Positions 479 through 7,032 of a stretch of DNA of 7,224 nucleotides are shown here, piece by piece. The translations under genes and the position numbers were made by a program. A model generated the notes under the pieces. The model did not search any database and had not been told where the DNA came from. It saw only the letters and a program-made list of their open reading frames with translations. Within the stretch, counting starts at the first letter, position 1; every line of letters starts with the position of its first letter. Source of the DNA: a virus (Duplodnaviria; Heunggongvirae; Uroviricota; Caudoviricetes). The stretch lies in IMG/VR virus record IMGVR_UViG_3300000059_000071, positions 1 through 7,224 of that record; one strand, written 5' to 3'.

Positions 479-1171
479 TTAATTGTGTCGCTTAAGGGTT
501 TGTGACTGGCTGATTAAGACCTTTCCAAAGACCATAAACCGGTGTTCATTTTCGCTGGTAATTCCCCATTCACGGTAAATCTGGTTATCAGAAATCACCA
601 GTAGTTTGTCAGGTATCATTTGCAGTCGTTTGACATAAATTTTATCATCAAAACCAAATACATAGATACCATCTCCATCAAACTGATTGATACTGACATC
701 AACGAAGATGAGATCTCCTGGCTCAATGGTTGGACACATACTGTCCCCACGAACGTTGATAACTTTAATGTGATTGGCTGGTCGTCCGCCAAACATCGAT
801 ACAGCATTATCAGTTCTGTATTCAATGGCATGAATCACATCAATGACATCACCGCCCTGGATAAGGCCATTTCCCGCACTGGCACTGACATCCAGCATTT
901 CAATACGGAATACATCCTTCACCTGCGCAACATCCTCACTAATACTGTTTTTACATACAGTATTACTTTTGAAGTCTGAGGTAAAGAGATCAGCAATATC
1001 AACACCTAAGCTCCTGGCAATATTACTCAGGGCTTGTTCAGTGAATTGTTTCTGCTTACCTGTTTCCAGGCGTGAGATATTCGCCGCATCCACTCCTATT
1101 GCTTCAGCGAGATCGGCGATTTTCATGTTCTTCGCCTGGCGAAGTTGTCTGACTCGATTTCCTATGTTCAT
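479..1171 (-). CDS. CI-type prophage repressor (N-terminal XRE-family HTH, C-terminal LexA-like S24 peptidase domain); predicted RecA-stimulated autocleavage
   Basis: 230-aa ORF. N-terminal HTH (KIADLAEAIGVDAANISRLETG). Ala-Gly candidate cleavage site at residues 99-100 (SASAGNG). Ser in GDSM (res 144) and Lys in YVKRL (res 181), spaced 37 residues as in LexA Ser119/Lys156. Divergent from the cro-like gene. No SD upstream of the ATG, consistent with a leaderless transcript. Confidence 0.9.
   Translation of the reverse strand: MNIGNRVRQLRQAKNMKIADLAEAIGVDAANISRLETGKQKQFTEQALSNIARSLGVDIADLFTSDFKSNTVCKNSISEDVAQVKDVFRIEMLDVSASAGNGLIQGGDVIDVIHAIEYRTDNAVSMFGGRPANHIKVINVRGDSMCPTIEPGDLIFVDVSINQFDGDGIYVFGFDDKIYVKRLQMIPDKLLVISDNQIYREWGITSENEHRFMVFGKVLISQSQTLKRHN
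943..962. promoter_or_regulatory. LexA-box (SOS box)-like palindrome TACTGTTTTTACATACAGTA inside the repressor coding sequence
   Basis: Matches CTGT-N8-ACAG with both TACTGT/ACAGTA arms perfect; only the AT-rich centre differs from the consensus TACTGTATATATATACAGTA. A scan of the other CTGT occurrences found no second match in the window. Confidence 0.55.
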
Positions 1172-2423: not shown

Positions 2424-3365
2424 ATGAGCACTAAATTAACCGGCTATGTATGGGATGGTTGCGCTGCATCAGGCATGAAATTATCCAGCGTGGCAATTAT
2501 GGCCCGCCTGGCTGATTTCAGTAATGACGAAGGTGTGTGCTGGCCATCAATTGAAACCATTGCCCGCCAGATTGGCGCGGGAATGAGTACCGTCAGAACG
2601 GCTATCGCACGGCTGGAAGCAGAAGGCTGGTTAACGCGTAAGGCGCGTCGCCAGGGTAACCGCAATGCGTCGAATGTTTATCAGCTTAACGTTGCGAAGC
2701 TTCAGGCAGCGGCATTTTCTCAACTGTCAGATTCTGACCCGTCAAAATCTGACGCATCAAAATCTGACCCGTCAAAATTTGATGCGTCGAAATCTGGCAA
2801 AAAAGCGGGTTTTCACCCGTCAGAATCTGGCGGGGATCCGTCAGTAAAATCAAAACATGATCCGTCAGATAAAAAAACTTCTCGTCCGGACGCTTCGCAA
2901 CCGGACACGCAGACGGCTGAACAGGAGTTTTTAACTCGCCATCCTGATGCGGTTGTATTCAGCCCTAAAAAGCGCCAGTGGGGAACGCAGGATGATTTGA
3001 CCTGCGCACAGTGGCTCTGGAAAAAAATCATCGCCCTGTACGAGCAGGCCGCCGAATGTGACGGCGAGGTGGTTCGTCCCAAAGAACCGAACTGGACAGC
3101 CTGGGCAAACGAAATTCGCCTGATGTGTGTGCAGGATGGTCGTACTCANAAACAAATCTGCGAGATGTACAGCCGCGTCAGNCGCGATCCGTTCTGGTGC
3201 CGTAACGTGCTCAGCCCGTCGAAGCTGCGGGAAAAATGGGATGAGCTTTCCCTGCGCTTATCGCCGTCCGTAAGCACGTACACCGAAAAACGCGAAGACC
3301 CGTACTTCAAATCCAGTTACGACAACGTGGACTACAGCCAGATCCCGGCAGGATTCAGGGGGTGA
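2424..3365 (+). CDS. Lambda O-like replication initiator (N-terminal winged-helix DNA-binding domain, repeat linker encoded by the iterons, C-terminal domain)
   Basis: 313-aa ORF in the O position after the CII-like gene. N-terminal HTH/winged-helix-like segment (SIETIARQIGAGMSTVRTAIARLEAEGWL). Internal 5-aa repeats (DPSKS/DASKS) coincide with DNA iterons as in lambda O. SD AGAGGT upstream. Contains two N bases (3149, 3182). Confidence 0.8.
   Translation: MSTKLTGYVWDGCAASGMKLSSVAIMARLADFSNDEGVCWPSIETIARQIGAGMSTVRTAIARLEAEGWLTRKARRQGNRNASNVYQLNVAKLQAAAFSQLSDSDPSKSDASKSDPSKFDASKSGKKAGFHPSESGGDPSVKSKHDPSDKKTSRPDASQPDTQTAEQEFLTRHPDAVVFSPKKRQWGTQDDLTCAQWLWKKIIALYEQAAECDGEVVRPKEPNWTAWANEIRLMCVQDGRTXKQICEMYSRVXRDPFWCRNVLSPSKLREKWDELSLRLSPSVSTYTEKREDPYFKSSYDNVDYSQIPAGFRG
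2724..2877. repeat. Iteron array plus A-rich tract: candidate phage replication origin embedded in the initiator gene
   Basis: Five tandem 15-bp units each containing a GTCA-N5-TGAC-type palindrome (GTCAGATTCTGAC 2726-2738, GTCAAAATCTGAC 2741-2753, ATCAAAATCTGAC 2756-2768, GTCAAAATTTGAT 2771-2783, GTCGAAATCTGGC 2786-2798). A sixth copy at 2819-2831, two degenerate CCGTCAG copies (2838-2845, 2861-2868) each preceded by GATC, then an A-rich run (2868-2877). Confidence 0.65.
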
Positions 3366-3367
3366 TC

Positions 3368-3856
3368 ATGAGTCTGTTAAATGACGTTCAGAAATTCATT
3401 GAAGCCCATCCGGGGTGTACTTCCGGAGACATTGCGGATGCTTTTGCAGGTTACTCACGGCAGCGCGTTCTGCAGTCAGCAAGCAAGTTACGTCAGAGTG
3501 GGCGTGTGGCTCACCGTTGTGAAGGAGATACACGCAGACATTTCCCGCGCCTGACTGAGAGAGCGCAGGAACCGGAACCACAACCAGTTCGTGAAACCAG
3601 ACCTGTGCGCAATTTCTATGTCGGCACTAACGATCCCCGTGTGATTTTGTGCCTGACCCGCCAGGCGGAAGAACTGGAGTCCAGAGGCTTATACCGTCGT
3701 GCTGCAACCGTGTGGATGGCGGCATTCCGTGAAAGCCACTCCCAGCCAGAACGAAACAATTTTCTGGCGCGTCGTGAGCGGTGCTTACGGAAAAGCAGCA
3801 AGCGCGCTGCATCGGGTGAAGAGTGGTATCTGTCAGGGAATTACGTGGGGGCTTAA
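3368..3856 (+). CDS. PerC/Pch-family-like transcriptional regulator with an N-terminal extension
   Basis: ORF with SD GGGGG upstream of ATG 3368 (the GTG at 3362 overlaps the O-like stop and is less likely). C-terminal segment AEELESRGLYRRAATVWMAAF...ERNNFLARRERC resembles the conserved core of PerC-like regulators as recalled. Stop overlaps the next start (TAATG at 3854-3858). Confidence 0.55.
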   Translation: MSLLNDVQKFIEAHPGCTSGDIADAFAGYSRQRVLQSASKLRQSGRVAHRCEGDTRRHFPRLTERAQEPEPQPVRETRPVRNFYVGTNDPRVILCLTRQAEELESRGLYRRAATVWMAAFRESHSQPERNNFLARRERCLRKSSKRAASGEEWYLSGNYVGA

Positions 3857-4509
3857 TGAGTAATAAATATTGCCAGGCGCTGGTGGAACTGCGGAACAAA
3901 CCAGCCCATGAACTGAAGGAAGTGGGCGATCAGTGGCGCACGCCGGACAACATTTTCTGGGGAATTAACACCCTGTTTGGCCCGTTTGTTCTGGATCTGT
4001 TCACTGACGGTGATAACGCCAAATGTGCCGCGTATTACACGGCGGAAGACAACGCGCTGGCGCATGACTGGTCAGAACGCCTTGCGGAGCTTAAAGGTGC
4101 TGCCTTTGGTAATCCCCCATACAGCCGTGCCAGTCAGCATGAGGGGCAATACATCACCGGCATGCGTTACATCATGAAGCATGCCAGTGCCATGCGTGAT
4201 AAGGGCGGGCGCTATGTTTTCCTGATCAAAGCTGCCACCAGCGAAGTGTGGTGGCCGGAAGATGCAGATCATATTGCTTTTATTCGCGGGCGTATTGGTT
4301 TTGAACTGCCTGCCTGGTTTATCCCGAAGGATGAGAAGCAGGTGCCGACAGGCGCTTTCTTCGCTGGTGCTATTGCTGTTTTCGACAAGACCTGGAAGGG
4401 ACCGGCAATCAGCTACATCGGGCGCGATGAACTTGAGGCATGTGGTGAGGCGTTTCTGGCGCAGGTTCGCCAGCAGGCGGAAAAACTGGTCAGGGAGATG
4501 GCGGCATGA
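3856..4509 (+). CDS. Phage Dam-family N6-adenine DNA methyltransferase (orphan, no cognate restriction gene nearby)
   Basis: 217-aa ORF from ATG 3856 (SD GGGGG 4 nt upstream). Catalytic motif IV FGNPPYS. Size and context typical of lambdoid nin-region adenine methylases. Coupled to neighbours at both ends. Confidence 0.8.
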   Translation: MSNKYCQALVELRNKPAHELKEVGDQWRTPDNIFWGINTLFGPFVLDLFTDGDNAKCAAYYTAEDNALAHDWSERLAELKGAAFGNPPYSRASQHEGQYITGMRYIMKHASAMRDKGGRYVFLIKAATSEVWWPEDADHIAFIRGRIGFELPAWFIPKDEKQVPTGAFFAGAIAVFDKTWKGPAISYIGRDELEACGEAFLAQVRQQAEKLVREMAA

Positions 4510-4832
4510 CGACGTTAACTCAATGCCAGCAGCAGGTGCTGGATATGCTGATTTCTTATCAGAAAGAACGTGGCTTCCCGCCAACCAATCAGGAGGTGGC
4601 AACCATGCTGGGATACCGTTCAGTGAATGCAGCGGTGGAGCATCTTCGCGCACTGGAGAAAAAAGGCGTCATCACGATAAAGCGTGGCGTGGCCCGGGGG
4701 ATAACGCTTCATACCGCGGTGAAGGACGACGACAGCGAGGCGGTCGGGATTATCCGCGCACTGCTTACCGGTGAGGAAAACGCAAGGCTGCGTGCAACCC
4801 ACTGGTTACATGAGAGGGGCCTGAAAGTATGA
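4506..4832 (+). CDS. LexA N-terminal DNA-binding-domain homologue lacking the cleavage site and S24 peptidase domain
   Basis: 108-aa ORF. Residues 1-70 align with E. coli LexA residues 1-70 at roughly 50% identity as recalled (ours QQQVLDML...GFPPTNQEVATMLGYRSVNAAVEHLRALEKKGVITI vs LexA RQQEVFDLI...[36 protein letters not shown]). Recognition helix NAAxEHL conserved. No Ala-Gly site or Ser/Lys dyad; a ~35-aa unrelated tail follows. ATGA overlaps at both ends. Confidence 0.8.
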   Translation: MTTLTQCQQQVLDMLISYQKERGFPPTNQEVATMLGYRSVNAAVEHLRALEKKGVITIKRGVARGITLHTAVKDDDSEAVGIIRALLTGEENARLRATHWLHERGLKV

Positions 4833-5218
4833 AGCTGATCCTGCCTTTTCCGCCCAGCGTGAACACGTACTGGCGACACCCCAACAAAGGGGCGTTTGCT
4901 GGTAAGAGCCTGATAAGCGCGGCGGGGCGAAAATTCCAGAGCGCGGCGTGCGCAGCAATAGTTGAGCAGTTACGTCGTCTGCCGAAACCAACGTCGGCAC
5001 CTGCTTCAGTGGAGATCGTGTTGTTTCCTCCGGATAACCGGATCCGCGATCTGGACAACTATAACAAGGCGCTGTTTGACGCCCTGACCCACGCGGGTGT
5101 GTGGGAAGACGACAGCCAGGTGAAAAGAATGCTGGTGGAGTGGGGACCGGTTATCCCGGAAGGGAAGGTCGAGATCACTATCAGTAAGTACGAGAAAACG
5201 GCGGGTGCAGCCGCCTGA
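4829..5218 (+). CDS. rusA: RusA Holliday-junction resolvase
   Basis: 129-aa ORF. Motifs LPFPPSVNTYWRH and RDLDNYNKALFDALTHAGVWEDDSQV match E. coli RusA (LPWPPSNNRYYRH ... [26 protein letters not shown]), including the catalytic Asp cluster. SD GAGAGGGG upstream. Confidence 0.9.
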   Translation: MKLILPFPPSVNTYWRHPNKGAFAGKSLISAAGRKFQSAACAAIVEQLRRLPKPTSAPASVEIVLFPPDNRIRDLDNYNKALFDALTHAGVWEDDSQVKRMLVEWGPVIPEGKVEITISKYEKTAGAAA

Positions 5219-5237: not shown

Positions 5238-6035
5238 ATGAATAATCTGATGGTCATTGATGGTATTGAAGTTCGTCGTGATGCTTATGGGCGTTACAGC
5301 CTGAACGATCTGCACAGGGCTGCCGGTTCTCTGGATAAGCATAAGCCTGCATTCTGGCTCCGCAATGAGCAAACTGAACGTTTAATAAGCGAGTTGCAGA
5401 TTTGCAACTCGGTCAATATAGAGCCAGTTAACGTTATTCGTGGCGGAAATAACCAGGGGACGTATGTCTGCAAAGAACTGGTGTATGCCTATGCAATGTG
5501 GATCAGTCCGTCATTCCATCTGAAGGTGATCCGTACTTTCGATATGGTAACCAGCGCACCGGAAAAATTATCCGGGCAGGCTGCTGACAAGATGCAGGCT
5601 GGAGTGATTCTGCTGGACTTTATGCGCCGGGAGTTAAACCTGTCTAACTCTTCAGTGCTTGGTGCCTGTCAGAAACTCCAGGAGGCTGTTGGCTTACCGA
5701 ATCTGGCACCGCGCTATGCCATTGATGCTCCTGCTGACGCGCCTGATGGCTCAAGCCGCCCCACGCTGTCACTGAGTGCACTGCTGAAGCAGTATGGTAT
5801 CCGCCTGACAGCTAATCAGGCATATCACCAGATGGTGAAGCTGGGGATCGTCGAGCAGCGCGAACGATACAGCCGTACCGCGATTAACAACATCAAAAAA
5901 TTCTGGTCGCTGACAGCGAAAGGCTGCATGTTCGGCAAGAACATCACCAGTCCCGCAAATCCGCGCGAGACGCAGCCGCATTTCTTCGAATCCCGATTCC
6001 CTGAGCTGTTAAAGCTGCTCGATACCGTTCATTGA
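5238..6035 (+). CDS. KilA-N domain protein (Roi/antirepressor-like) with an uncharacterised C-terminal domain
   Basis: 265-aa ORF from ATG 5238 with SD GAGGAG 8 nt upstream. N-terminal ~100 aa (MVIDGIEVRRDAYGRYSLNDLHRAAG...KPAFWLRNEQTERLISEL) has the character of KilA-N/Roi DNA-binding domains. The C-terminal ~160 aa was not recognised. Confidence 0.75.
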   Translation: MNNLMVIDGIEVRRDAYGRYSLNDLHRAAGSLDKHKPAFWLRNEQTERLISELQICNSVNIEPVNVIRGGNNQGTYVCKELVYAYAMWISPSFHLKVIRTFDMVTSAPEKLSGQAADKMQAGVILLDFMRRELNLSNSSVLGACQKLQEAVGLPNLAPRYAIDAPADAPDGSSRPTLSLSALLKQYGIRLTANQAYHQMVKLGIVEQRERYSRTAINNIKKFWSLTAKGCMFGKNITSPANPRETQPHFFESRFPELLKLLDTVH

Positions 6036-6036
6036 G

Positions 6037-7032
6037 GTGACCGTGAGAGCACTACTGACCCCTGAAATTGCCCCGCGTATGGGGATCGTATTGTTCAGAC
6101 CAGGTTCAGAGCTGATGCCCCTGTTTATGCAGGGGCGTGTCCTGCTGGAGCCTGAGCCGGAACGTTATTCATCTTTCGCCAGCGGTGCCGTTCCGGCGGC
6201 ATCACAACCGCTGGCGGATGATCCTGCCGTTCGGGCCGTGTTCCGCAATGAGGCAGTGATCCGTCGTGCTGGTGGCGTGGAATGTCTTGAAAGCTGGTTA
6301 CTTCGTGAAAAAGGCTGCCAGTGGCCTCATTCCGACTGGCACAGCGAGAACATGACCACAATGCGACACGCTCCGGGCGCAATCCGTCTGTGCTGGCACT
6401 GCGATAACCAGCTGCGCGATCAGTTCACGGAACGGCTGGAATCAATGGCAACGGATAACTGTGCCCGCTGGGTGTTGTCTGTTGTGCGTCGGGATCTCGG
6501 TTTTGATGACAGTCACGTTGTGACAATGCCGGAACTGTGCTGGTGGCTGGTTCGTAATGACCTGGCGGATGCCTTACCGGAAAGTGCAGCCCGTAAGGCA
6601 CTGAGATTACCGAAGCCTGTTGTGCCGTCTGTCACCCGGGAAAGTGACCTTGTGCCTTCGGTTCCTGCCACCAGCATCATCCAGGATAAAGCGAAAAAGG
6701 TGCTGGCGCTGAAAGTGGATCCGGAGTCGCCGGAGTCTTTTATGTTACGCCCAAAACGTCGCCGCTGGGTTAATGAAAAGTACACGCGCTGGGTTAAGAC
6801 GCAGCCGTGTGCATGTTGTGGAAAGCCTGCTGATGATCCCCACCANCTGATAGGCCACGGTCAGGGNGGAATGGGTACAAAAGCGCATGANCTCTTTGTG
6901 TTGCCTTTGTGCAGAAAGCATCACGACGAGCTGCATGCGGATACCNTGGCATTTGAAGAGAAGTATGGCTCCCAGCTGGAGNTGATATTTCGTTTTATCG
7001 ATCGTGCGCTGGCAATNGGCGTGCTGGCCTGA
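6037..7032 (+). CDS. DUF968-like prophage protein with C-terminal Cys/His (HNH-like) motif; start codon uncertain (GTG 6037, GTG 6043 or ATG 6079)
   Basis: 331-aa ORF directly upstream of Q, the position of DUF968 proteins in lambdoid prophages as recalled. Cys/His motifs CWHCDNQ and CACCGKP...CRKHHDELH. Six N bases inside the ORF (6846, 6868, 6891, 6946, 6972, 7018). Confidence 0.65.

What the first reader, a model, noticed from the sequence alone, without database searches (positions are those of the whole stretch)
3368..5218. Four-gene translationally coupled cassette: PerC-like, Dam methylase, LexA-like, RusA
Consecutive stop/start overlaps (TAATG at 3854-3858, ATGA at 4506-4509 and 4829-4832) indicate tight co-translation of a regulator, an orphan adenine methylase, a LexA DNA-binding-domain protein and a junction resolvase. 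This combination (DNA modification, SOS-type DNA binding, recombination repair) may be one functional unit, for example coupling methylation to damage-responsive regulation, rather than unrelated nin genes.
Basis: inference. Interest (0 to 1): 0.45.

Follow-up and report, generated by a model that had tools for sequence, protein, structure and literature searches.

The report
Known lambdoid prophage early-gene block
The four overlapping genes are real, but they are a well-known, widely shared stretch of the early operon of E. coli/Shigella lambda-like prophages, and related phages drop, swap or move each gene, so they are not one obligate four-gene machine.

Summary
Four intact + strand genes sit at the stated coordinates: YfdN/PerC-like 3368-3856, phage Dam 3856-4509, a LexA-N-terminal-domain-only protein 4506-4832 and RusA 4829-5218. 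The junctions are TAATG, ATGA and ATGA.

The block is 97-99% identical to annotated genes of phages SfV (orf40-dam-orf42-orf43), SfII, mEp460, Stx2c/Stx2a phages and the K-12 CPS-53 remnant. About 1,640 of 5,426 complete E. coli genomes carry the whole block. It lies between the replication gene and Q, the position of lambda's nin region.

Tight junctions run through the whole operon and recur whichever genes happen to be neighbours. Natural relatives lack Dam (SfIV, roughly a fifth of E. coli records with any match), LexA' (ST64B), YfdN (cdtI phage), or both YfdN and Dam (mEp390). In Klebsiella prophages a 65%-identical Dam sits on the other side of DUF968.

Two regularities remain. The gap between YfdN and LexA' almost only holds DNA methyltransferases, of at least five unrelated kinds. 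LexA' is nearly always followed by RusA in three of its four clades. The block itself is ordinary and already known. The LexA' family has no reported function that I could find.

The parts
3368..3856 (+). YfdN-type PerC-family protein, 162 aa (164 aa if GTG 3362 is the start). It has an N-terminal winged-helix-like part and a C-terminal PerC motif at residues 98-149.
   Evidence: Pfam PF06069 E 7.7e-9, above the cut-off. phrog_1324 'transcriptional activator' E 1e-78. Annotated yfdN / PerC family in RefSeq E. coli. Weak sub-threshold ANR-family match.
3856..4509 (+). Orphan phage N6-adenine DNA methyltransferase (Dam), 217 aa, with an NPPY motif.
   Evidence: PF05869 E 1e-45. TIGR01712 equivalog 255.6 bits against a cut-off of 97. 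PADLOC MTase_II/oMTase. 99% identical to the SfV protein annotated as Dam. No restriction enzyme gene is adjacent.
4506..4832 (+). LexA' : a LexA N-terminal DNA-binding domain (residues 1-68) plus a conserved two-helix tail (residues 74-103), 108 aa. It has no S24 peptidase domain.
   Evidence: PF01726 full-length match, E 3e-19. PDB LexA N-terminal domain 1lea E 6e-16. AF2 model pLDDT 78.6. Foldseek 3jso rmsd 0.9 A over 67 residues at 51% identity. Below the TIGR00498 LexA cut-off, 68.5 against 110.95. The tail motif is conserved in four clades.
4829..5218 (+). RusA-family Holliday junction resolvase, 129 aa.
   Evidence: PF05866 E 6e-15. phrog_34.
3854..3858 (+). TAATG: the YfdN stop overlaps the Dam start by 1 nt.
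   Evidence: YfdN is followed by a 1-nt overlap in 131 of 135 related junctions, whatever the next gene is.
4506..4509 (+). ATGA: the Dam stop overlaps the LexA' start by 4 nt.
   Evidence: Dam->LexA' shows the 4-nt overlap in 51 of 51 junctions. The same overlap occurs when u75, MT-A70 or O precedes LexA'.
4829..4832 (+). ATGA: the LexA' stop overlaps the RusA start by 4 nt.
   Evidence: Seen in 167 of 168 related junctions.
2424..3365 (+). O-like replication initiator with four 15-bp iterons (2733-2796). It is the upstream neighbour in the same tightly packed operon.
   Evidence: HTH_36/DnaD_N. phrog_391. Tandem repeat.
5238..6035 (+). KilA-N domain protein, the downstream neighbour, always present in the closest clade.
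   Evidence: PF04383. Architecture counts.
6037..7032 (+). DUF968 / HNH-like protein, the last gene before Q in related phages.
   Evidence: PF06147. Q follows it in L001-L004 and L165.
479..1171 (-). cI-type repressor (HTH plus S24 peptidase), which sets the SOS-inducible control of the rightward operon.
   Evidence: PF00717 and HTH_3.

Best explanation
This is a segment of the early rightward (pR-type) operon of a common family of E. coli/Shigella lambda-like prophages: SfV, SfII, mEp460, Stx2c phages and the CPS-53 remnant. It occupies the stretch between the replication initiator and the Q antiterminator, which is the equivalent of lambda's nin region.

Inferred sequence of events: after the S24-type cI repressor is inactivated, one transcript runs through cro, cII-like, p1170, O-like, YfdN, Dam, LexA', RusA, KilA-N and DUF968 towards Q. 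The short overlaps let ribosomes terminate and restart, so expression is compact and roughly co-ordinated.

The four products act separately on phage DNA metabolism and regulation. Dam methylates adenine, most likely in GATC, on newly replicated phage DNA. That would give protection from restriction and full methylation when replication outruns the host enzyme. RusA cuts Holliday junctions and other branched intermediates before packaging. YfdN is a PerC-type small regulator of unknown target. LexA' is a LexA-like DNA binder that cannot be cleaved through RecA because it lacks the peptidase domain; its target is unknown.

The block is built from exchangeable single-gene cassettes whose borders coincide with the ATGA/TAATG junctions. 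Genes can be lost, gained or replaced while the coupling is kept. The gap between YfdN and LexA' is a slot that accepts DNA methyltransferases of many kinds.

Shown: gene identities, overlaps, synteny, separability and the slot pattern. Inferred: transcript structure, translational coupling and the biochemical roles.
For: Identities.

Near-identical annotated blocks occur in 39 deposited phage genomes and about 1,640 complete E. coli genomes. Q follows DUF968 in relatives. No + strand terminator-like or promoter-like site lies inside the cassette, and there is no Rfam match.

Separability. Dam is absent in L002, in about 10 of 50 evenly sampled E. coli records, in about 26 of 69 IMG/VR loci, and in SfIV, as its authors noted. 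YfdN is cut to 28 aa in L003, L004 and cdtI phage. LexA' is absent in L004, ST64B and F1055. mEp390 has O-LexA'-RusA-DUF968-Q only. LLS has O-Dam only.

Indel junctions are exact at the start codons. Overlap types are fixed by position, not by partner.

Family sizes in 50,697 phage records: Dam 1,201, RusA 431, LexA' 63, YfdN 57. Most Dam and RusA genes therefore occur without the other two. In a Dam-anchored set, only about 12 of 78 loci have LexA', and about 20 of 78 have Dam after DUF968.

From established knowledge (not checked here): rusA lies in the nin region of phage 82 and of the DLP12 prophage, and lambda's nin ORFs also overlap.
Against: The order YfdN - methyltransferase - LexA' - RusA recurs in three LexA' clades that are only about 50% identical. 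The slot is filled by unrelated enzymes: PF05869 Dam, MT-A70, D12-class Dam, C5+D12 fusions, a PAPS-reductase-like region fused to a D12 domain, and C5 enzymes. LexA' is directly followed by RusA in three of its four clades (overlap intact in 167 of 168 such junctions). This is more regular than free assortment and could reflect functional links between neighbours.

No function has been shown for YfdN or LexA', so independent action is an assumption. Many of the sampled loci are related by descent, so the counts are not independent events.
Confidence: 0.8

Rival explanations
1. One reading: the four genes form one integrated system in which adenine methylation, LexA-type DNA binding and junction resolution are mechanistically coupled. 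An example would be methylation state feeding into damage-responsive regulation of the phage.
For: Three consecutive stop/start overlaps. The full four-gene block is the commonest form in E. coli: about 1,640 genomes and about 41 of 69 close IMG/VR loci. The analogous order, with other methyltransferases, occurs in the mEp390 and Kosakonia clades.
Against: Every gene is missing in some relative, and at least SfIV was isolated as a working phage by its authors. Examples: SfIV and Ayreon lack Dam, mEp390 lacks YfdN and Dam, ST64B and F1055 lack LexA', and LLS has Dam alone. Overlaps re-form with any neighbour. The Dam family is about 20 times more widespread than LexA', and in Klebsiella prophages it sits beside Q. 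GATC is not enriched, and there is no GATC-containing SOS-like site in the window.
Confidence: 0.05
2. Smaller functional pairs exist inside the block. (a) LexA' and RusA work together, or LexA' adjusts the host SOS/recombination state for phage DNA processing. (b) YfdN is tied to the methyltransferase that follows it, for example as its regulator.
For: LexA' is directly followed by RusA in the window, mEp390 and Kosakonia clades, with the 4-nt overlap in 167 of 168 junctions. In the fourth (Klebsiella) clade, LexA' lies near a DinI-family gene, a family linked to RecA/SOS control. S39, N41 and R64-G65 are kept in all four clades; A42 and E45 are kept in three of them. In the mEp390 clade, YfdN and MT-A70 are mostly present together (about 50 loci) or absent together (about 9). 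Single loci carry fused YfdN::Dam and YfdN::MT-A70 reading frames.
Against: RusA occurs without LexA' in ST64B, F1055, L004 and most of the 431 RusA-bearing phage records. LexA' occurs without RusA in 68 Klebsiella-clade loci. YfdN occurs without a methyltransferase in about 26 of 69 close loci, and methyltransferases occur without YfdN in L003, L256, L260 and about 25 Dam-anchored loci. At least the YfdN::Dam fusion sits at a G-run next to the 1-nt overlap and may be a sequencing or frameshift artefact. Dam::LexA' fusions of the same kind also exist. Adjacency can be inherited rather than selected.
Confidence: 0.13
3. The block is decaying cargo of defective prophages, with no current function.
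For: K-12 CPS-53 keeps only yfdN and a truncated yfdM. Some cluster members are truncated or frameshifted.
Against: All four ORFs are intact here, with catalytic or recognition motifs kept. The block is present in phage genomes deposited as isolates, such as mEp460, SfV, SfII and Stx2 phages. Identity of 97-99% with intact frames holds across thousands of genomes.
Confidence: 0.02

Closest known systems
Shigella phages SfV (orf40-dam-orf42-orf43) and SfII; E. coli phage mEp460; Stx2c/Stx2a-converting phages; E. coli K-12 CPS-53 remnant (yfdN-yfdM)
   Same: The same four genes in the same order with the same overlaps, at 97-99% DNA identity and with the same flanking KilA-N, DUF968 and Q genes.
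   Different: Only point differences. The upstream O-like gene and the KilA-N allele vary between members. CPS-53 keeps only yfdN and a fragment of the methylase.
Lambda nin region (between P and Q), and the nin regions of phage 82 and the DLP12 prophage, which carry rusA
   Same: Position between the replication genes and Q. Small, tightly packed and partly overlapping ORFs. A junction-resolving nuclease is present (Rap in lambda, RusA in 82/DLP12). Gene content varies between relatives as a mosaic.
   Different: The gene set differs: no ninB/orf, ninE and so on, and instead YfdN, a methyltransferase slot, LexA', KilA-N and DUF968. No separate P-type helicase loader gene follows the O-like gene here.
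Host LexA repressor
   Same: The N-terminal winged-helix domain is 43-51% identical and superposes at 0.9 A on LexA bound to DNA. The recognition-helix residues S39, N41, A42 and E45 are kept.
   Different: There is no S24 peptidase/dimerisation domain and no catalytic Ser/Lys. It scores below the NCBIfam LexA cut-off. It has its own conserved two-helix tail, so it is not a RecA-cleavable SOS repressor.
PerC / Pch regulators of EPEC and EHEC
   Same: Carries the PerC motif above Pfam's threshold. A published study treats yfdN as the K-12 PerC homologue (PMC5931665).
   Different: YfdN has an extra ~95-residue N-terminal domain, and it sits in the early operon next to the replication gene. No target is known.

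Membership tests
Phage N6-adenine methyltransferase (Pfam PF05869 / TIGR01712) | Profile match above the curated cut-offs over the full domain | tested here: met
   PF05869 at 156 bits against 28.1, covering 3-167 of 169 positions. TIGR01712 at 255.6 bits against 97.05.
Phage N6-adenine methyltransferase (Pfam PF05869 / TIGR01712) | Catalytic (D/N)PPY motif | tested here: met
   GNPPYSRA is present in the translation of 3856-4509.
Phage N6-adenine methyltransferase (Pfam PF05869 / TIGR01712) | GATC-specific methylation activity | not testable with these tools
   99% identical to the SfV protein annotated as Dam. Activity was reported for SfV by its authors; this is my recollection, and the paper is not held.
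RusA Holliday junction resolvase | Pfam PF05866 match above the cut-off | tested here: met
   56.4 bits against 22.8, covering 1-123 of 124 positions.
RusA Holliday junction resolvase | Conserved acidic catalytic residues and Lys (K-12 RusA D70, D72, K76, D91) | tested here: met
   RDLDNYNKALFDAL...WEDDSQV aligns with [14 protein letters not shown]...WLDDAQV. The residue roles come from the literature as I remember it.
LexA SOS repressor | N-terminal winged-helix DNA-binding domain | tested here: met
   PF01726 covering 1-65 of 65 positions. Foldseek match to 3jso/1lea.
LexA SOS repressor | C-terminal S24 peptidase/dimerisation domain with catalytic Ser and Lys, and the Ala-Gly self-cleavage site | tested here: not met
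   The protein ends at residue 108. There is no Peptidase_S24 hit. TIGR00498 scores 68.5 bits against a cut-off of 110.95 and matches model positions 1-91 only.
PerC family | PF06069 match above the cut-off | tested here: met
   36.1 bits against 22.6, residues 98-149. The mEp390-clade homologue does not reach E 0.001.
PerC family | Activation of the LEE1/ler promoter or another defined target | not testable with these tools
   No data. PMC5931665 only deletes yfdN as a precaution.
Translationally coupled operon segment | Stop/start overlaps on one strand with no intervening terminator | tested here: met
   The same overlaps are seen in related loci.
Translationally coupled operon segment | Downstream translation depends on upstream translation | not testable with these tools
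   Each gene has its own Shine-Dalgarno sequence, so independent initiation is also possible.
   Single-gene absences are shown. Dam is relocated beside Q. Family sizes differ 20-fold.
Lambdoid nin-region equivalent | Located between the replication gene(s) and Q in the early rightward operon, with mosaic content | tested here: met
   The order O - cassette - KilA-N - DUF968 - Q is seen in SfV, three E. coli prophages, mEp390 and ST64B.

The most novel reading that the evidence does not exclude
The conserved order YfdN - (any DNA methyltransferase) - LexA' - RusA may reflect a real functional arrangement. In this reading LexA', a LexA look-alike that RecA cannot inactivate, occupies SOS-type operators in an induced cell and so resets host repair and recombination while RusA processes phage DNA. 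YfdN would govern whichever methyltransferase sits behind it. LexA' would then be a new kind of phage-encoded SOS mimic.
Probability: 0.1. Interest if true: 0.55.

Novelty: already known. Interest (0 to 1): 0.15.

Why it matters
As found, it matters little. The block is annotated in thousands of genomes, was described as part of the replication module of the SfV, SfII and SfIV phages, and behaves like an ordinary mosaic early-operon segment.

Its use is as a clean example of how lambda-like phages swap single genes exactly at overlapping start/stop codons without breaking the operon. If the residual regularities prove functional, the small LexA' family, for which I found no reported function, could show how phages manipulate the SOS response from inside an induced cell. 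These prophages include Shiga-toxin phages, whose induction drives toxin release.

Tried and rejected
Literature searches for a described four-gene unit, or for a characterised LexA-DBD-only phage protein, found nothing relevant. The SfV genome paper is not held.

The genome-contig scan with the LexA' profile mostly returned true lexA genes of marine Gammaproteobacteria. Only 6 of its 80 loci were useful.

A search for SOS boxes gave one perfect CTGT-N8-ACAG inside the cI gene. At one mismatch there were 6 matches against 2.6 expected, which is not convincing. GATC is not enriched: 35 against 28 +/- 5. No CTG-N10-CAG site lies in the first 1 kb of the Klebsiella locus L166, which includes the region upstream of its LexA' gene.

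The dam promoter annotated inside SfV orf40 was not picked up by the promoter scan, and the corresponding hexamers in the window look weak.

I considered the fused YfdN::Dam and YfdN::MT-A70 ORFs as 'Rosetta stone' evidence and set them aside. At least the YfdN::Dam fusion arises at a G-run beside the 1-nt overlap, and similar Dam::LexA' fusions exist.

The UTI89 filamentation fragment that contains yfdN2 does not include LexA' and was not resolved to a gene.

My first protein clustering merged YfdN with Dam and was redone with stricter coverage. My simple gene caller sometimes picks a spurious reverse-strand ORF over the methylase gene (x34, x266), so a few architecture strings are unreliable.
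Full report
**What is there.** The window is the immunity and early region of a lambda-like prophage. It contains, in order:
- a cI-type repressor with an S24 peptidase domain (479-1171, minus strand);
- cro (1269-1529);
- a cII-like gene (1567-2079);
- a small conserved ORF, phrog_1170 (2076-2414);
- an O-like replication initiator (2424-3365) with four 15-bp iterons at 2733-2796;
- the four genes of the finding;
- a KilA-N protein (5238-6035);
- a DUF968/HNH-like protein (6037-7032).

| Gene | Coordinates | Size | Pfam family |
|---|---|---|---|
| YfdN-type PerC-family protein | 3368-3856 | 162 aa | PF06069 |
| Phage Dam methyltransferase | 3856-4509 | 217 aa | PF05869 |
| LexA' (LexA N-terminal DNA-binding domain only) | 4506-4832 | 108 aa | PF01726 |
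| RusA | 4829-5218 | 129 aa | PF05866 |

All four score above Pfam's cut-offs. The junctions TAATG (3854-3858), ATGA (4506-4509) and ATGA (4829-4832) are exactly where stated. Each start also has its own Shine-Dalgarno sequence. None of the window's eight N bases falls in the cassette.

**Is it more than chance?** The overlaps are real but not distinctive. In the same operon cII-like/p1170 overlap by ATGA. O/YfdN are 2 nt apart, or overlap by GTGA if the upstream GTG is the start, as RefSeq annotates it. KilA-N/DUF968 are 1 nt apart.

I fetched about 260 related loci and recorded each junction by the identity of the two genes:
- YfdN is followed by a 1-nt overlap in 131 of 135 cases. This holds whether the next gene is Dam (49/50), an MT-A70 methyltransferase (46/48), LexA' (26/27) or an unknown 261-aa gene (10/10).
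- LexA' is preceded by a 4-nt overlap after Dam (51/51), after a 75-aa ORF (54/54), after MT-A70 (11/14) and after O (10/14).
- LexA'->RusA has the 4-nt overlap in 167 of 168 cases.
- LexA'->u67 has it in 79 of 80.
- O->YfdN has it in 127 of 127.
- Ant->DUF968 has it in 44 of 44.
- RusA->DUF968 has it in 31 of 32.

Tight junctions therefore belong to the operon and to each position. They do not mark this set of four.

**It is already known.** The 1,851-bp block is 97-99% identical to annotated genes in 39 deposited phage genomes. These include SfV (orf40, dam, orf42, orf43), SfII, mEp460, fifteen Stx2c phages and Stx2a phages.
- 2,697 of 5,426 complete E. coli genomes have a match, and 1,636 carry at least 80% of the block.
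- K-12 keeps the remnant yfdN-yfdM in CPS-53.
- In SfV, three E. coli prophages, mEp390 and ST64B, the genes after DUF968 are Q and then lysis genes. The block therefore lies where lambda's nin region lies.
- From established knowledge: rusA is itself a nin-region gene in phage 82 and in DLP12, and lambda's nin ORFs also overlap.
- The SfIV genome paper calls this stretch the replication module. It notes that the methylase of SfII and SfV is missing from SfIV (PMC3851460).

**Separability among close relatives.** These relatives share the same flanking genes, and their cassette DNA is 97-98% identical to the window.

| Locus | Arrangement | Source |
|---|---|---|
| L002 | YfdN-LexA'-RusA; Dam gone exactly from ATG to ATG | |
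| L003 | YfdN reduced in frame to 28 aa, still ending in TAATG before Dam | |
| L004 | Dam-RusA; LexA' gone exactly | |

In an evenly spaced sample of the 2,706 matching E. coli records:
- 30 of 50 rows have the full block;
- 10 of 50 lack Dam;
- 6 of 50 are the K-12 remnant;
- one row has only a fragment of YfdN, and one lacks both most of YfdN and LexA'.

Of 69 evaluable IMG/VR loci with a LexA' at least 98% identical, about 41 have Dam and about 26 do not. YfdN (in at least fragmentary form), RusA, KilA-N and DUF968 are present in nearly all of them. On co-occurrence alone, the natural block in this clade would be six genes with an optional seventh, not four.

**Separability among distant relatives.**

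| Phage or locus | Arrangement between O and Q | Source |
|---|---|---|
| ST64B | YfdN (69%) - long Dam (70%, 297 aa) - RusA (80%); no LexA' | |
| Salmonella phage F1055 | YfdN (46%) - D12-class Dam (PF02086, unrelated fold family) - RusA | |
| mEp390 | O - LexA' (48%) - RusA - DUF968 - Q only | |
| Phage LLS | O - long Dam - KilAC - HNH - Q only | |
| Klebsiella prophage clade (68 loci) | DinI - u96 - LexA'-like (39%) - u67 - DUF968 - Q; no YfdN, almost never a methyltransferase, no RusA | |

I anchored a further set on a Klebsiella-type Dam that is 65% identical to the window's. Of its 78 loci:
- about 12 have LexA';
- about 11 have YfdN;
- about 37 have RusA downstream;
- about 20 have Dam directly after DUF968, next to Q, which is a different order.

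In the phage genome collection the four families differ greatly in spread: Dam 1,201 records, RusA 431, LexA' 63 and YfdN 57. It is met for independence, and for order in the case of Dam.

**What speaks for some linkage.** Two regularities survive.

First, the gap between YfdN and LexA' almost only holds DNA methyltransferases, and these are of unrelated families:
- PF05869 Dam, in short and long forms;
- MT-A70 (about 50 of 69 mEp390-clade loci);
- D12-class Dam;
- C5+D12 fusions of 607-797 aa;
- a 587-aa protein whose C-terminal half is a D12-type methyltransferase domain and whose N-terminal part I read, without a Pfam scan, as PAPS-reductase-like;
- C5 enzymes of 308 and 629-673 aa, assigned from their sequence motifs rather than by a Pfam scan.

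The slot sometimes holds two methyltransferases in a row, and sometimes small unknown ORFs beside them.

Second, LexA' is directly followed by RusA in three of its four clades, even where LexA' is only about 50% identical.

Both patterns fit the usual rule that lambda-like phages keep functions at fixed map positions and exchange analogues there. Methyltransferases are also common phage cargo. A functional tie between neighbours cannot be excluded. Many loci share ancestry, so the counts overstate the number of independent events.

**The LexA-like protein.**
- The best PDB sequence match is the LexA DNA-binding domain, 1lea, at E 6e-16.
- An AlphaFold model (pLDDT 78.6) superposes on DNA-bound LexA (3jso) at 0.9 A over 67 residues.
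- S39, N41, A42, E45 and R64-G65, which I recall as DNA-contacting residues in LexA, are kept. E44 is Val.
- The protein stops at residue 108, has no S24 domain, and scores below NCBIfam's LexA cut-off. It cannot be a RecA-cleavable repressor.
- Instead it has a two-helix tail (74-88 and 93-103) with a motif conserved in all four clades: LL-x-G-E/G...AR..A..WL. This may be a small dimerisation element (inference).
- A full HMMER scan of 1.84 billion representatives found only about eight to ten full-length clusters of this type, 105-135 aa at 40-52% identity. It is a small family, seen here only in Enterobacteriaceae prophages.
- I found no paper on its function.

**The other three proteins.**
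- Dam matches the TIGR01712 equivalog (255.6 bits against 97), has NPPY, and has no adjacent nuclease gene. The SfV protein, 99% identical, is annotated as Dam, and I recall it was shown to be active by Allison et al. 2002 (paper not held).
- RusA is 39% identical to K-12 RusA, with the catalytic Asp/Asp/Lys/Asp positions aligned.
- YfdN carries the PerC motif in its C-terminal third, plus an extra N-terminal domain. PMC5931665 treats yfdN as the K-12 PerC homologue. Its target is unknown.

**Most likely mechanism.** After repressor inactivation, one early transcript covers O through DUF968. No + strand terminator-like or promoter-like site lies inside the cassette. Overlapping codons give compact, coupled translation. 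The products then act separately:
- Dam methylates replicating phage DNA;
- RusA resolves branched DNA before packaging;
- YfdN and LexA' are DNA-binding or regulatory accessories of unknown target.

The cassette borders coincide with the start codons. Illegitimate or short-homology exchange at ATGA/TAATG can therefore add or remove one gene while leaving the neighbours coupled. This explains why overlaps are seen with every partner.

I put this at 0.8. Partial functional pairs (LexA'-RusA, YfdN-methyltransferase) are at about 0.13.

**Verdict.** The block is an ordinary, already annotated part of a common prophage family, so interest is low (0.15). The one thread worth keeping is the LexA' family and its fixed place between a methyltransferase slot and RusA.

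Noticed in passing
window 2733-2796: Four copies of a 15-bp repeat (TCTGACCCGTCAAAA, also readable as two 30-bp units) lie inside the O-like gene. They are probably the origin iterons. They encode the repetitive DPSKSDASKS stretch of the protein.
   Followed up: partly
window 945-960: A perfect SOS-box-like palindrome, CTGTTTTTACATACAG, lies inside the cI repressor coding sequence. About 0.1 such site is expected by chance in a window of this size. Its conservation was not checked.
   Followed up: no
window 3149, 3182, 6846, 6867, 6891, 6946, 6982, 7017: Eight N bases, clustered in the 3' part of the O-like gene and in the 3' part of the DUF968 gene. None is in the four-gene block. They suggest a consensus of mixed or low-quality reads at variable sites.
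   Followed up: partly
window 2424-3856: No P-type helicase-loader gene follows the O-like replication gene. YfdN sits in that position, 2 nt after O. Whether YfdN has any replication role is unknown.
   Followed up: no
L009 6150-7973; L170 4471-5343; mEp390-clade loci e.g. L187; L463 7268-9157: The slot between YfdN and LexA'/RusA holds at least five unrelated methyltransferase types (PF05869, MT-A70, D12, C5+D12 fusion, C5). It sometimes holds two in a row.
   Followed up: yes
L266-L345 (Klebsiella prophage clade), e.g. L166 1-2200: A more distant LexA'-like protein (about 130 aa with an N-terminal extension; the GenBank start looks too far downstream) sits in DinI - u96 - LexA' - u67 - DUF968 - Q. 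The neighbour is from the DinI family, which is linked to RecA/SOS control.
   Followed up: partly
L427-L450 (Klebsiella-type prophages): A Dam 65% identical to the window's lies directly after DUF968 and before Q. Its position relative to DUF968 is the opposite of that in the window.
   Followed up: yes
L118 (YfdN::Dam, 382 aa) and L197 (YfdN::MT-A70, 367 aa): Single continuous ORFs fuse YfdN to the following methyltransferase. In L118 the fusion comes from one extra G in the G-run just before TAATG. It could be a sequencing error or real slippage.
   Followed up: partly
L003 and L004 3995-4078; cdtI phage: YfdN is reduced by an in-frame internal deletion to a 28-aa peptide that still ends in the TAATG overlap with Dam. 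Upstream translation still terminates at the Dam start.
   Followed up: partly
L169 4483-5376 (ST64B Sb44), L167 3998-4885 (LLS), L453, L463: Long forms of the PF05869 Dam (290-460 aa) share a conserved C-terminal extension (SRIWPLEVGLVF...QQNKLKANINQLWLER) that has no Pfam match. The window's 217-aa Dam lacks it.
   Followed up: no
window 3368-3856 (residues 96-142): The PerC-motif region of YfdN also gives a weak, sub-threshold match to the ANR (AraC negative regulator) family (NF033650, 23.6 bits against a cut-off of 32).
   Followed up: no
L346 (E. coli UTI89 4,997,073-4,999,597): A published screen (PMC6206680) found that a UTI89 fragment causes filamentation when overexpressed. The fragment covers the Rha-family gene, a small ORF, the O-like gene, yfdN2 and the 5' part of dam of this same prophage type. 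The responsible gene was not resolved, and LexA' is outside the fragment.
   Followed up: partly
mEp390-clade loci, e.g. L226, L183: A conserved 261-aa gene with no Pfam match (begins MIHYHGGPITPD...) is sometimes inserted between YfdN and the MT-A70 gene. A conserved 75-aa ORF often sits between MT-A70 and LexA'.
   Followed up: no
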